Assembly: GCF_006345805.1 (NCBI RefSeq)
Contig: NC_043026.1
Span: 12,441,579 to 12,505,578, forward strand
Reading direction: 5' to 3'
Length of the DNA stretch: 64,000 nt
Origin: Octopus sinensis
Taxonomy: Eukaryota
Part shown: positions 5,153-22,000 of the stretch, piece by piece
Layout of the letters: each line of letters opens with the position of its first letter
Numbering within the stretch: the first letter of the stretch is position 1
The notes under the pieces: model-generated
The model's input: only the letters and a program-made list of their open reading frames with translations
What the model was told of the DNA's origin: nothing
Databases searched by the model: none
Position numbers and translations under genes: made by a program

Positions 5153-5581
5153 GCACGGATTTTTGTCAGTGAACAGGTCGCGGTCTTAAAGCAACGAAAA
5201 TATTTTGACAAATTAAACTTAAATGTTGAAGTGAATCGAACGGCTTTTGTGTGTTTCTTAAATGGCTTATAAACACCTTCCACGCTGCAATTGTTTTCGT
5301 TTCAGCACACGATCTCAGATCAAACCACTTGCTATGCAAGTACATCTCCGTAATATATATATATATATATACAGATGCAGCACGGATTTTTGTCAGTGAA
5401 CAGGTCGCGGTCTTAAAGCGACGAAAATATTTTGACAAATTAAACTTAAATGTTGAAGTGAATCGAACGGCTTTTGTGTGTTTCTTAAATGGCTTATAAA
5501 CACCTTCCACGCTGCAATTGCTTTCGTTTCAGCACATGATCTCAGATCAAATCACTTGCTATGCAAGTACATCTCCGTAAT
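5153..5581 (+). mobile_element. Tandem dimer (227-bp period) of hammerhead-bearing retrozyme/PLE-like repeat
   Basis: Two direct copies separated by (TA)n; each contains TTTGTCA-GTGAACA-G-GTCGC...GC(G/A)AC-GAAA-ATAT-TT-TGACAAA. Confidence 0.75.
5389..5439 (+). ncRNA. Putative minimal type-I hammerhead ribozyme with G3-C8 core variant
   Basis: Stem I UUUGUCA/UGACAAA, core GUGAACA, stem II GUCGC/GCGAC, GAAA, palindromic AUAU stem III, NUH triplet UUU; identical motif at 10158-10208. Confidence 0.6.
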
Positions 5582-5914
5582 ATAATAGTATTAATAAAGC
5601 TGAAGTGAAAACCAGATATATAGTGTGTGTATTTATTTGGCAAAATACAATAATCCCCACGTATAACAATGTGTTTGTGTATGTGTGTGCTGGTGTCACA
5701 TAAAGGGACCCAGTACATTCTGTAAAGTGGTTGGTATTAGGAAGGGCATCCAGCTGTAGAAACCAAGCTAAACCAGAGTGGAACCTGGTACAGCTGTCTG
5801 TTTTGCTGGCATGGAATCAGACATGAAATGATGATATATATGTGTGCGTGCTGCTTACCAGCCACATGGTTCTGGGTTCAGTTCCACTGTGTGACACCTT
5901 GGGCAAGTATCTTG

Positions 5915-19010: not shown

Positions 19011-22000
19011 CCCAAGACACAACAAAATTTAATTCAACACACGAATTCACATAAAGAATCTTGCAAGCTAAACACAAAGACAAAATGCAAACAGTAATAT
19101 CACAATAGGAACCGTCGTAAGGGACACCAACAGAATCTGAGATATTTCGGGATGAATGAACAAGAGGAAGTGATGTCATACGACAAGGACGGAAGCCGTG
19201 GGCAGAACAGGAAGCGAAGGGCCTCTGTCTGCCGAAGCATTTAGGATCCCGACTTGTTCCTGGTCCTTACTGGAACTCGAGTCTCTAATTTGTTGATAAG
19301 CGCTATCTTTTCTCTTCTTGCAAAGCTTATGATTGTCGGTTTTTAAAACATACAAATCAGCCAGCCTCGCCTGGCCCCCGAGCCGGTGGCACGTAAAAAG
19401 CACCATCCGATCGTGGCCATTTGCCAGCCTCGTCTGGCATGTAAAAAGCACCCACTACACTCACTGAGTGGTTGGCGTTAGGAAGGGCATCCAGCCGTAG
19501 AAACACTGCCAGATCAGACTGGGCCTGATGCAGCCTTCTGGCTTCCCAGACCCCAGTTGAACCATCCAACCCATGCTAGCATGGAAAGCGGACGCTAAAC
19601 GATGATGATGAAATCATGGTGTTTATGCATTGTTTTGGAATATTTTATTTTTTAACCTTGGTGCGTCTCAGAATTCTTCAGTTTTTTTCTTTTCTGTGTT
19701 TTGATACCTTCAATGTTCTATTATTGCACTTTTGCTGTTTTAAATGCTTGTACACACTGGCTGTGTTTGTCAGTTCCTGATACAGCTAATTATAAATGAA
19801 AGTAGAGAGTGTGGGTCAGTCTGTGCTCAGGTGCAACTTTCAACTCTCCCTTCTCAAGGGATTGGATTGATGTGCCTTGCCTGTGGCCAGAATTGAAGGT
19901 CTAATCAGTCTAGATGAGCTCCACATCTCCATTGCACTCAGAGTGGGAGTCAACGTCTGTCGGGGGCTGAGATGTCACTGTGGTAGACCTCTCAGACTCT
20001 ACAGCCCTACACAATCTGTCTTGCTACTTAAATGCTTGTTGTTTCGCTTGTCACACCAAGCTACTTAATCGTTAAGTAGGTCCTGACTCAGGTAATATCC
20101 CCTCTGTTCTGGAGCCAGTAGGATTATCCAGAAGTGATTGGAATGTTTCAGGGAGAAAAATGATTTAGCTAAATAGAGGGCATAGGATTGGCTAAAATTC
20201 GAAAAATTAAACTACGTTAAACTTACAAATTACAATTTTCTCAATAAAGCCAAGAGAAAAAAATGTTTTATTTTGACACATTCTACCAGTATACGAAGTT
20301 TTAAAAGTGTTTAGTTAACTAGAAATTGTGTTGAAAACTGCCGTTCAAAAGGAAAAGATCCGTTTTATGGAAACACACTACCAGTATATGAAGTTTAAAA
20401 GTGTTTAGTTACAAAGAAATATTTCAAAAATCTGCCGGTCAAAGTGAAAGATCCCAAATATCTTACAAACTATAGAATTTTCCCAAGAAAGCCAAGAGAA
20501 AAAGATGTTTTATAAACACATTCTACCAGTATACGAAGTTTAAAAGTGTTTAGTTTACAAGAAATTATTTCAAAAATCTGCCGGTCAAAGTGAAAAGCTC
20601 CCATAAAAATAACAAAAAGGAAAGAGAAGTTAGTTGAATTTCGCCAGAATATCTTGTGAACTTTAAATATGTGAAGTTACTTTCATTGCATTCACATACG
20701 CAAAACACTGTCTTTCTATCTGAAAGCTGTTTGCCATAACAGAAAAATAAGCTCTCAGCGGTTCTCTCCCCTTGAACGAAATTTATCCTATTTCTTAGCA
20801 AACTCACTTTCTCTCCACTTCTTTGAAAACGAGCATAGATTGGCAGCGACCAGCGGTCGCCAGTCAAATTTCACACGTTTACAAACGACAAACTTTTACA
20901 TAAAATAATATTGATATATATGTATATATGTATATATATATATATATAGGCTAAACTGGCAATATGACCATTCCGAAATATAACAATATATATATATATA
21001 TAAACAGCATGGATTTTTGTCAGTGAAGAGGTCGCGGTCTTAAAGCGACGAAAATATTTTGACAAATTAAACTTAAATGTTGAAGTGAATTGAACGGCTT
21101 TTGTGTGTTTCTTAAATGGCCTATAAACACCTTCCACGCTGCAATTATATATTATATATTTAAAACCTTATCAGCATGGATTTTTGTCAGTGAACAGGTT
21201 GCGGTCTTAAAGTGACGAAATATTTTGACAAATTAAACTAACTTAATTTGAAGTGAATCGAACGGATTTTGTGTGTTTCTTAAATTGTTTATAAACACCT
21301 TCCACGCTGCAATTGTTTTCGTTCCAGCACACGATCTCAGATCAGGTCACTTGCTATGCAAGTACATCTCCGTAATTCCGAAAGCTTGAGCCAGGCTACC
21401 AAAACTCTGAGGACAGCCGTTACTTGTTGCTTGAGAAGAATAACAGCTTCATTTCATTAGACACTGCATCTCACTGAAGGTTTACCCGAAAAGGATTTAC
21501 CATACAGTCGAAGCACTAAACCTAAAGAAGGGACAAGCGTCAAGACTAAATTTACTGAGATGCAGCACGGATTTTTGTCAGTGAAGAGGTCGCGGTCTTA
21601 AAGCGACGAAAATATTTTGACAATTAAACTTAAATGTTGAAGTGAATCGACGCGCTTTTGTGTGTTTTCTTAAATGGCTTATAAACACCTCCATGCTGCA
21701 ATTGCTTTCCTTTCAGCACACGATCTCAGATCAAATCACTTGCTATGCAAGTACATCTCCGTAATATATAATATTATATTATATATATATATATGTATGT
21801 AGGTATAAGGAACACAAGAGTTGATATATATGAAAAAACAGTCAAGATAGAAAATGCTAAAATAATTTTATAAAGAACAAACGATATATCCACCTCGTAT
21901 GACTTAAAGTTGGCACGTTATGGGTTATAGCTGTGATTGGGGTTGATTTTTATGGATTCTTAGGAATGTAATATTTGCGTGTGTATTTGGGTTATTCTAA

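What the first reader, a model, noticed from the sequence alone, without database searches (positions are those of the whole stretch)
5153..21765. Retrozyme/Penelope-like repeat family carrying a minimal hammerhead ribozyme with a swapped G3-C8 core pair
Seen: nine forward copies (motifs at ~5162, 5389, 9988, 10158, 10328, 10715, 21016, 21183, 21574) and one inverted fragment of a ~170-390-bp unit, in tandem and bounded by (TA)n. Each folds as stem I UUUGUCA/UGACAAA, GUGA(A)(C/G)A-G, stem II GUCGC/GCGAC, GAAA, palindromic AUAU, UU. Established: minimal type-I hammerheads with a tiny palindromic stem III that cleave as dimers occur in Penelope pLTRs and tandem non-LTR retrozymes; the core needs a 3-8 Watson-Crick pair, normally C3-G8. 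Here five copies read GUGAACA (G3-C8 compensatory swap), which CUGANGA searches would miss, and four read GUGAAGA (G3-G8, predicted dead). The copies at 10328 and 21183 have stem II changes that keep G.U pairs. Inference: an overlooked self-cleaving, possibly circRNA-producing mobile RNA family inside a ZNF cluster.
Basis: partly seen in the sequence, partly recalled or inferred. Interest (0 to 1): 0.85.

Follow-up and report, generated by a model that had tools for sequence, protein, structure and literature searches.

The report
Penelope hammerhead with swapped core pair
These repeats are end fragments of a Penelope-type jumping gene whose thousands of genomic copies carry a hammerhead-ribozyme motif with its core C-G pair flipped to G-C, likely a slow cutter, and the copies appear to come from RNA that the ribozyme had not cut.

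Summary
The nine motifs, their cores (5 G3-C8, 4 G3-G8) and the inverted fragment are real; three lie in a local duplication. They are pseudo-LTR (pLTR) fragments of an autonomous Penelope-like element (PLE): a ~4.4-kb parent with reverse transcriptase and C-terminal GIY-YIG, flanked by the same motif, is in this genome. G3-C8 is the family state: 4,945 of 5,405 exact matches. Related elements carry C3-G8 or U3-A8 at the same place, so the swap is a true compensatory change; G3-G8 copies are mostly damage. Copy ends show two reverse-transcription starts and a 5' end 58 nt upstream of the predicted cut, often with an extra G (cap signature, inferred); only 107 of 6,872 copies could begin at the cut. 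The templates were therefore mostly uncut, against the retrozyme/circle reading. A 166-170-bp tandem derivative exists (75 units) but is almost confined to one chromosome. Cleavage is untested. My searches found no natural G3-C8 hammerhead in print; one key paper was unavailable. New variant of a known kind.

The parts
4940..5005 (-). Inverted, 5'-truncated pLTR arm (starts after the first half of the core; no complete hammerhead)
   Evidence: 98% over 66 nt; inverted 5' arms are typical of PLE insertions (PMC8557442 Fig. 2 legend)
5008..5152 (+). 145-bp C2H2 zinc-finger fragment lying between the inverted arm and the first forward copy; 94% identical to 3483-3628 of the neighbouring ZNF ORF; likely captured by template switching
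5153..5354 (+). pLTR copy, long form with tail; G3 5169, C8 5174; stem II has a C.A mismatch; predicted cut 5205/5206
5373..5581 (+). pLTR copy, long form; intact G3-C8 hammerhead motif 5389-5439 (G3 5396, C8 5401, U17 5432, predicted cut 5432/5433); start codon of the parent's ORF at 5489
9915..9974 (+). 60-bp 3' end of a sister PLE family (family B, locus L132) sitting in the same (TA)n tract
   Evidence: 98% identity
9977..10118 (+). pLTR copy, short form, G3-G8 core (G3 9995), predicted dead
10144..10288 (+). pLTR copy, short form, intact G3-C8 motif (G3 10165; predicted cut 10201/10202); unit of the local 166-170-bp tandem derivative
10314..10691 (+). pLTR copy (G3-C8, two G.U pairs in stem II) running on into the first ~280 nt of the parent's ORF (90% identical to L051, with an 11-nt deletion)
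10698..10907 (+). pLTR copy, long form, G3-G8 core (G3 10722); begins with an extra G at 10698 before the inferred RNA start at 10699
21005..21765 (+). Three copies (G3-G8, G3-C8, G3-G8) that duplicate the 9977-10907 cluster
19319..26846 (+). Second copy of 8324-15966 (96-100% identical, many small indels, identical 425-aa ZNF protein): very recent duplication or uncollapsed assembly

Best explanation
The repeats are pLTR fragments of an autonomous Penelope-like retrotransposon whose hammerhead motif carries G3-C8 in place of C3-G8, predicted to cut slowly, and they were likely copied by the element's own reverse transcriptase from capped, uncut RNA into (TA)n tracts. Shown: the parent (L051: motif at 2058, ATG at 2157, RT, zinc-finger linker, GIY-YIG, 3' UTR, second motif at 6419); G3-C8 as the family state; C3-G8 or U3-A8 at the same place in relatives; two fixed 3' ends; a 5' end upstream of the motif. 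Inferred: transcription starts about 15 nt before stem I; the protein nicks TA-rich DNA and starts reverse transcription 32 or 92 nt into its own ORF; when it does so on the 5' pLTR it yields the 150-210-bp solo and inverted copies that make up nearly all of the family. A cut at the 5' motif would remove the cap ahead of the start codon, and a cut at the 3' motif would remove the priming sites, so the ribozyme most likely acts as a slow brake on the element's RNA rather than as a step of transposition, and a weakened G3-C8 core is compatible with high copy number. G3-G8 copies are mostly per-copy damage; the 166-170-bp arrays are a local secondary expansion, likely at the DNA level.
For: Parent elements L051, L053, L054 with ORF and two motifs 4.36 kb apart in L051; GIY-YIG above Pfam cut-off in L053's C-terminus (25.9 vs 22.6 bits) and weak RVT_1 in homologues; 167 homologues, some annotated RT/GIY-YIG. 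5,405 exact matches with positions 3 and 8 open, control 0; 169 lack G3, 291 have G3 without C8, leaving 4,945 (91.5%); no C3-G8 among the first 100 of the 169. Descriptor open at 3/8 on the 3' regions of 11 related elements: 6 hits, all Watson-Crick (C-G 3, U-A 2, G-C 1); shuffles 9 of 330 any hit, 2 of 330 paired; sister family B has C3-G8 by eye and groups with this family (83/99), so G3-C8 is derived. On a sequence-only alignment the 3-8 pair reads GC 5, CG 4, UA 1, unpaired 2, and G10.1-C11.1 is 12 of 12. 3' ends at L051 ~2189 (110) and ~2249 (142) of 299 hits, about half followed by (TA)n (60 of 110, 66 of 142); 62 of 79 inverted pairs have one long and one short end, the PLE tail signature (PMC11167929). 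107 of 6,872 copies of the post-cut 23-mer are preceded by a non-native base (1.6%, below the 3.1% and 5.6% decay at positions 3 and 8); 29 of 30 copies picked by that 23-mer run past the cut. Of the first 100 of 1,119 copies reaching the inferred start, 53 break there and 34 of these have G next (hand count; binomial p 2e-9 at 25%). In a lizard PLE the engineered C3G/G8C double mutant partly restores cleavage and uncut RNA is the main substrate in vitro (PMC11167929). Partner arms of G3-G8 copies carry C8 in 9 of 12 loci, U8 in 2, G8 in 1.
Against: No cleavage, transcription or cap data: no run on record as RNA, contigs only. Within the family, purifying selection on the motif is weak evidence: three subfamily majorities differ at 0 of 42 core and stem positions but only 3 of 49 downstream; the 5 of 9 loop differences are circular because subfamilies were defined on the loop. 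Covariation rests on 7 elements, 5 of the 11 regions gave no descriptor hit (some truncated; family B missed because of a bulge), and 7 of 12 rows are this family. Many extra-G junctions are inversions where the G could be templated by the opposite arm, and the sequence upstream of the inferred start looks like a 3' splice site (47 of 100 copies keep it). C-to-G at position 8 is in excess (48 of the first 100 non-C8 copies against 13 C-to-A, hand count), and two older ORF-bearing copies (L056, L057) have G3-G8, which per-copy damage alone does not explain. Predicted folding of the 9979-10520 array does not keep the motif in two of three units. The brake role is inference only.
Confidence: 0.68

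Rival explanations
1. Same PLE origin, but the G3-C8 motif no longer cleaves at a useful rate; it is kept as a folded element (protein-binding, promoter or splice-related) or is a recent relic.
For: No copies from cut RNA. G8C lowers the rate 10^5-fold and C3G restores it only partly (PMC8495972); minimal PLE hammerheads are already slow (PMC4209133). Sister family B and L090 have C at position 9, so cores drift in this lineage. G3-G8 excess.
Against: All 7 motifs found in the lineage keep a Watson-Crick 3-8 pair through three different combinations; this pair is a catalytic-core contact, not part of a stem. All other core positions are canonical in this family.
Confidence: 0.2
2. One reading: a non-LTR retrozyme; tandem units cleave as dimers, monomers circularise and are copied round the circle by the PLE enzyme. 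At most this applies to the 166-170-bp derivative.
For: A 166-170-bp unit with its own junction occurs 75 times, in arrays of up to 24 units at sites whose flanks are unrelated apart from one duplicated pair and short shared repeats; 43 of 73 short units with a readable core are G3-C8. Such arrays fit the working definition of non-LTR retrozymes as tandem PLE derivatives (10.64898/2026.07.22.740005).
Against: 56 of 75 junctions are on one contig (55 within 11.1-15.1 Mb), 1 on another large contig, 18 on small scaffolds. First units mostly carry the native leader or are truncated, differ in subfamily, and several last units carry the 60-nt tail, which a 166-nt circle cannot hold. The longest array (24 units, L301) has A3-C8 and mostly a broken stem II, so arrays grow without a working core. 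Tandems are 2 of 46 in the family at large.
Confidence: 0.1
3. Chance hairpin in a repeat, not a hammerhead homologue.
For: No Rfam match; z of the fold is only -2.6.
Against: Same position, same architecture and compensatory changes in related elements; 0 hits in 20 shuffled windows.
Confidence: 0.02

Closest known systems
Minimal type-I hammerheads in pLTRs of metazoan Penelope-like elements (Cervera and de la Pena 2014, PMC4209133)
   Same: Type I, extra base between 9 and 10.1, G10.1-C11.1, short palindromic stem III, position in the pLTR, thousands of dispersed single copies.
   Different: G3-C8 core. That paper reports C3-G8 and a U3-A8 variant in Schistosoma; Perreault 2011 reports U3-A8 as the natural covariant (PMC3088659).
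PAc (Poseidon PLE of Anolis; Frangieh et al. 2024, PMC11167929)
   Same: Two internal RT starts inside the ORF that define the tail, AT-rich targets, hammerhead near the start codon, uncut RNA as main substrate.
   Different: There G3-C8 is an engineered rescue mutant; here it is the natural state. Tail is 60 nt rather than 30-40; cut site is predicted 56 nt upstream of the ATG rather than 26 nt downstream.
Nematis clade of C-terminal EN+ PLEs (as defined in Craig et al. 2021, PMC8557442)
   Same: C-terminal GIY-YIG with CCHH residues; short CX3-4CxxC linker with a 7-residue spacer like the Nematis rows of Fig. S2.
   Different: DKS instead of DKG; about 70 extra residues between RT motifs 3 and 4 (131 aa here, median 132 in 74 homologues, 59 in a Neptune-type copy of this genome), where canonical C-terminal EN+ PLEs have no insertion in the fingers.
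Animal non-LTR retrozymes (PMC7229834; 10.64898/2026.07.22.740005)
   Same: Short non-coding tandem units with a type-I hammerhead, derived from PLE ends (the 166-170-bp arrays).
   Different: Arrays are under 2% of the family, local, and show ends of linear templates; no evidence of circles; minimal rather than canonical motif.

Membership tests
Penelope-like element (C-terminal EN+) | Single ORF with RT and C-terminal GIY-YIG endonuclease | tested here: met
   807-aa open frame in L053; GIY-YIG 25.9 bits over cut-off 22.6; RVT_1 only weak and only in homologues; RT motifs visible in alignment A1. L051 has one frameshift.
Penelope-like element (C-terminal EN+) | Partial-tandem pLTRs containing a hammerhead motif | tested here: met
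   L051 motifs at 2065 and 6426; L053, L054 likewise
Penelope-like element (C-terminal EN+) | Inverted 5'-truncated arms and optional tail at one end | tested here: met
   62 of 79 inverted pairs have one long and one short 3' end
Penelope-like element (C-terminal EN+) | RT groups with PLE/telomerase RTs in a reference phylogeny | not testable with these tools
   No named reference set available in the script box; only a Neptune-type copy from this genome, on a very long branch
Nematis clade | Short CX2-5CxxC linker before GIY-YIG | tested here: met
   7-residue spacer in both families of this genome against Fig. S2 rows
Nematis clade | DKG motif and no insertion in the fingers | tested here: not met
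   DKS; RT3-RT4 spacing 131 aa against 59. Not filed as Nematis.
Hydra clade | DKT, no CCHH, CxCX5C linker, length under 3 kb | tested here: not met
   DKS, CCHH residues present, CxxC linker, 4.4 kb
Minimal type-I hammerhead | Conserved core U4 G5 A6, A9, G12 A13 A14, A15.1-U16.1, H17 with stems I and II | tested here: met
   (8 of 9 window copies keep stem II pairing; two duplicates have one-base deletions)
Minimal type-I hammerhead | Watson-Crick pair between positions 3 and 8 | tested here: met
   G3-C8 in 4,945 of 5,405; covaries across relatives
Minimal type-I hammerhead | Site-specific self-cleavage, as a dimer or with protein help | not testable with these tools
   Needs in vitro assay; RNA evidence unavailable
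Non-LTR retrozyme | Occurs mainly as tandem repeats with a complete motif in each unit | tested here: not met
   2 of 46 copies tandem; met only by the local 75-junction derivative
Non-LTR retrozyme | Processed by the ribozyme to monomers and circles that serve as templates | tested here: inconclusive
   Genomic ends argue against cut templates; circles in RNA not testable

The most novel reading that the evidence does not exclude
First natural, family-fixed G3-C8 hammerhead: a working but detuned ribozyme in about 5,000 copies, in an undescribed PLE lineage (C-terminal GIY-YIG plus a telomerase-sized insertion in the RT fingers) whose 3-8 pair has sampled C-G, U-A and G-C. Its genomic copies record capped, uncut templates, giving genome-scale evidence that PLE hammerheads are brakes on the element rather than processing steps.
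Probability: 0.35. Interest if true: 0.75.

Novelty: new variant of a known kind. Interest (0 to 1): 0.55.

Why it matters
The 3-8 pair was known from engineered swaps and from natural U3-A8; a natural G3-C8 family is invisible to descriptors that require C3 and G8 (the core strings used in PMC8557442) and to Rfam here, so hammerhead counts in animal genomes are likely too low. What PLE hammerheads do is stated to be unclear (PMC8557442). The two 3' ends, the 5' end with extra G and the absence of ends at the cut give an in-genome counterpart to the one in vitro study and a direct test: compare G3-C8, C3-G8 and G3-G8 versions for cleavage and for retrotransposition. The parent may also represent a PLE lineage outside the eight named clades.

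Tried and rejected
Rfam scan: no hammerhead match. Pfam on the long parent fragments: nothing useful until the C-terminus was scanned alone. PDB sequence search: two weak RT hits only. Viral contigs: no relative. Prokaryote genome contigs: one likely contaminant, no motif. Sequencing runs: no RNA holder listed; 20 of 21 rows hold half or more of the words, in four coded organisms; four runs laid were contigs and cannot show ends or expression. Idea that G3-G8 is the ancestral intermediate preserved in an old subfamily: rejected as the general case, G8 is 3 of the first 100 in the older-loop subfamily and 1 of the first 100 in the window's, occurs in all loop types and partners mostly have C8. 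Idea that copies begin at a spliced exon junction with a shared upstream exon: no shared sequence beyond one G and no fitting donor in six parent copies. Idea that the 185-bp internal piece is a retrozyme body: it is the parent's ORF start. Earlier findings of the scan: three look-ups returned nothing. Not-in-print claim for natural G3-C8 rests on paper searches and on the motif table of PMC8557442 (all C3-G8); Lunse et al. 2017 on small PLE hammerhead variants, Przybilski and Hammann 2007 (recalled) and Arkhipova 2017 were not held, supplement file 1 of PMC4209133 was not searched, bioRxiv supplements are closed, and Repbase/Dfam were not available, so any of these may already hold the variant or the family.
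Full report
Observation. The nine forward motifs, the 5:4 split of G3-C8 and G3-G8 cores and the inverted fragment at 5005-4940 are in the sequence. The motif at 5389-5439 folds into a 7-bp stem I and a 5-bp stem II, with a six-base palindrome for stem III and U at position 17; a descriptor open at positions 3 and 8 finds 7 of the 9 copies and nothing in 20 of 20 shuffled windows at the stringency of the intact copies. 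The 5162 copy has a mismatch in stem II, and the G.U changes at 10328/21183 are CpG transitions. The three copies at 21-22 kb belong to a duplication of 8324-15966 at 19319-26846 with an identical ZNF protein and many small indels, so the window holds two independent clusters. The 84-bp ZNF arrays around them are real. The genome is 2.7 Gb; a protein named from Octopus matches it at up to 99%, so the host is likely an octopus (inference).

The parent. Searching the genome with the 185-bp piece between two window copies led to long elements. L051 has the motif at 2058, an ATG at 2157, an ORF of about 1,070 codons with one frameshift, a microsatellite-rich 3' UTR and a second motif at 6419. [quoted passage not shown] The window's 10314-10691 copy is the pLTR plus the first 280 nt of this ORF. 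The repeats are therefore ends of a Penelope-like element. The linker is Nematis-like, but the protein has DKS and 131 residues between RT motifs 3 and 4 (median 132 in the 74 of 120 homologues where both motifs were found; 59 in a Neptune-type copy), so I do not file it in a named clade; three of its motifs are absent from the supplement of PMC8557442, which holds mainly the new clades.

The swap. With positions 3 and 8 open, a 21-mer has 5,405 exact matches (control 0); 169 lack G3 and 291 have G3 without C8, leaving 4,945 G3-C8. None of the first 100 non-G3 matches is C3-G8. In the 3' regions of 11 related elements an open descriptor gave 6 hits, each with a Watson-Crick 3-8 pair: C-G in L088, L089, L093, U-A in L090, L091, G-C in L051; shuffles gave 9 of 330 hits, 2 paired. 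The sister family in the same genome has C3-G8 with C at position 9 and a bulged stem I and groups with this family (83/99, not starred), so G3-C8 is derived. A sequence-only alignment shows two-sided changes at the 3-8 pair and at three stem II pairs, 0 of 500 shuffles as high for cells paired, but 7 of its 12 rows are this family. Within the family the signal of selection is weak: 0 of 42 core and stem positions differ between subfamily majorities, against 3 of 49 downstream. G3-G8 copies occur in all subfamilies and their inverted partners mostly have C8 (9 of 12 loci), so most are damage; the excess of C-to-G over C-to-A at this position (48 against 13 in the first 100, hand count) is unexplained.

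How copies were made. Among 299 distinct hits in the loci held at that point (a sample biased to copies with the 5' half of the motif), 3' ends pile up at L051 ~2189 (110) and ~2249 (142), about half followed by (TA)n. In 79 inverted pairs, 62 have one end of each kind. This matches the two internal RT starts and the tail described for a lizard PLE (PMC11167929). For the 5' ends I anchored downstream of the predicted cut: 6,872 copies of the 23-mer that begins at the cut, only 107 preceded by a non-native base; even if half of cut-derived copies were hidden by a chance T this is about 3%. Of the first 30 such copies, 29 run past the cut and the one that starts there is an inversion junction using stem I complementarity; 24 begin at 2040-2062 and two more at the same edge. 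Of the first 100 of 1,119 copies that reach position 2043 (pattern excludes A 20 bases upstream), 47 continue into native upstream sequence and 53 break off; 34 of these have G next, 10 C, 6 A, 3 T, with no further shared sequence (hand count; three of the G rows are one repeated locus). An extra 5' G is associated with reverse transcription of a cap (PMC9341517), so I read 2043 as the RNA start. Caveats: many of these junctions are inversions in which the G could come from the other arm, and the native upstream sequence resembles a branch point, pyrimidine tract and acceptor, as at the intron of Drosophila Penelope (PMC4209133; PMC2377424). Either way the templates extended about 58 nt upstream of the cut and were uncut there.

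Mechanism. Shown: parent, family state, covariation, ends. Inferred: an internal promoter starts RNA just before the motif; the element's protein primes on TA-rich DNA at one of two sites within the ORF start; priming on the 5' pLTR gives the short copies that dominate (55 candidates for the ORF start, against thousands of motifs). A cut at the 5' motif would separate the cap from the start codon and a cut at the 3' motif would remove the priming sites, so cleavage should reduce both translation and copying. I therefore favour a slow, perhaps protein-assisted ribozyme acting as a brake. The engineered double mutant cleaves partly (PMC8495972; PMC11167929), and U17 avoids a G3-C17 mispair (inference from PMC3884650). 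Probability that the motif still cleaves: about 0.65; that the brake role is right: about 0.4; that the repeats are PLE pLTRs: above 0.95.

The retrozyme reading. In 46 distinct copies from the start of contig C1, 28 are in inverted pairs (both arms may be counted), 16 solo, 2 tandem. The window's 170-bp array belongs to a derivative with its own junction: 75 matches, 56 on the window's contig, 1 on another large contig, 18 on small scaffolds. At the sites I read (15 stretches fetched plus L035, L036 and the window), flanks are unrelated except one duplicated pair and short shared repeats; first units mostly have the native leader or are truncated, several last units have the tail, and the 24-unit array has a dead core. 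This fits local DNA-level spread or linear templates better than circles, but RNA data are lacking.

Known and new. Hammerheads in PLE pLTRs, dimer cleavage and natural U3-A8 are published (PMC4209133; PMC3088659; PMC6765202). My searches found no natural G3-C8 and no octopus hammerhead study beyond PMC8557442; Lunse et al. 2017 was not held and may list it. What I saw of each paper: PMC4209133 parts 1-2 of 4 and a search of supplement file 2; 10.64898/2026.07.22.740005 part 1 of 5 and passages; PMC8557442 abstract, passages, sections 11, 12, 17, supplement parts 1, 2, 54 and searches; PMC11167929 passages and second part of the main text; PMC3088659 section 8; PMC6765202 passages and part of section 11; passages only of PMC8495972, PMC3884650, PMC7229834, PMC2377424, PMC9341517.

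Verdict. A real, well-supported core variant of a known ribozyme in a known class of element, with a useful genomic record bearing on an open question and a possibly unplaced parent lineage. Not a new mobile RNA class. Interest 0.55.

Noticed in passing
L053:4725-7145 (-), L132:2710-5841, homologues: The parent lineage combines a C-terminal GIY-YIG with a ~70-residue insertion between RT motifs 3 and 4 and a DKS motif; it may be a PLE clade outside the eight named ones, common in marine contigs.
   Followed up: partly
window 5008-5152: A 145-bp ZNF fragment, 94% identical to 3483-3628 of the adjacent ZNF ORF, sits between the two arms of a PLE insertion; PLE template switching may copy pieces of ZNF genes within the cluster.
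   Followed up: partly
window 5153-5581 relative to ZNF ORF 2391-4202: The motif dimer lies on the sense strand about 1 kb downstream of the ZNF stop codon and could fall in its 3' UTR.
   Followed up: no
L132:6364-6410 and L090:2492-2538: Sister family B and one metagenome relative have C instead of A at core position 9; L088 has U15.1-A16.1. The lineage is rich in core variants.
   Followed up: partly
G000 genome-wide: C-to-G at position 8 (48 of first 100 non-C8 copies) exceeds the transition C-to-T (39) and C-to-A (13), unlike position 3; cause unexplained.
   Followed up: partly
L051:2020-2044: Branch-point-like, pyrimidine-rich sequence ending in CAG or TAG (by subfamily) coincides with the inferred RNA start; may be a true 3' splice site as in Drosophila Penelope.
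   Followed up: partly
G000:C30:11.1-15.1 Mb (L292-L304): A 166-170-bp pLTR-derived tandem unit has spread to 14 sites in one 4-Mb region, with arrays up to 24 units; the longest has a dead core.
   Followed up: partly
window 8324-15966 and 19319-26846: Near-identical duplication with identical ZNF protein and many small indels; may be an uncollapsed haplotype.
   Followed up: partly
window 9915-9974 and 20945-21002: 3' end of the sister PLE family nested in the same (TA)n tract as the motif array; both families share the target.
   Followed up: yes
window 30589-33720: A 3.1-kb near-perfect palindrome (98%) centred near 32150, with (TA)n at its centre.
   Followed up: no
window 16196-19009 and 59546-61038: Tandem arrays of 257-bp (11 copies) and 253-bp (6 copies) units without a hammerhead descriptor hit.
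   Followed up: no
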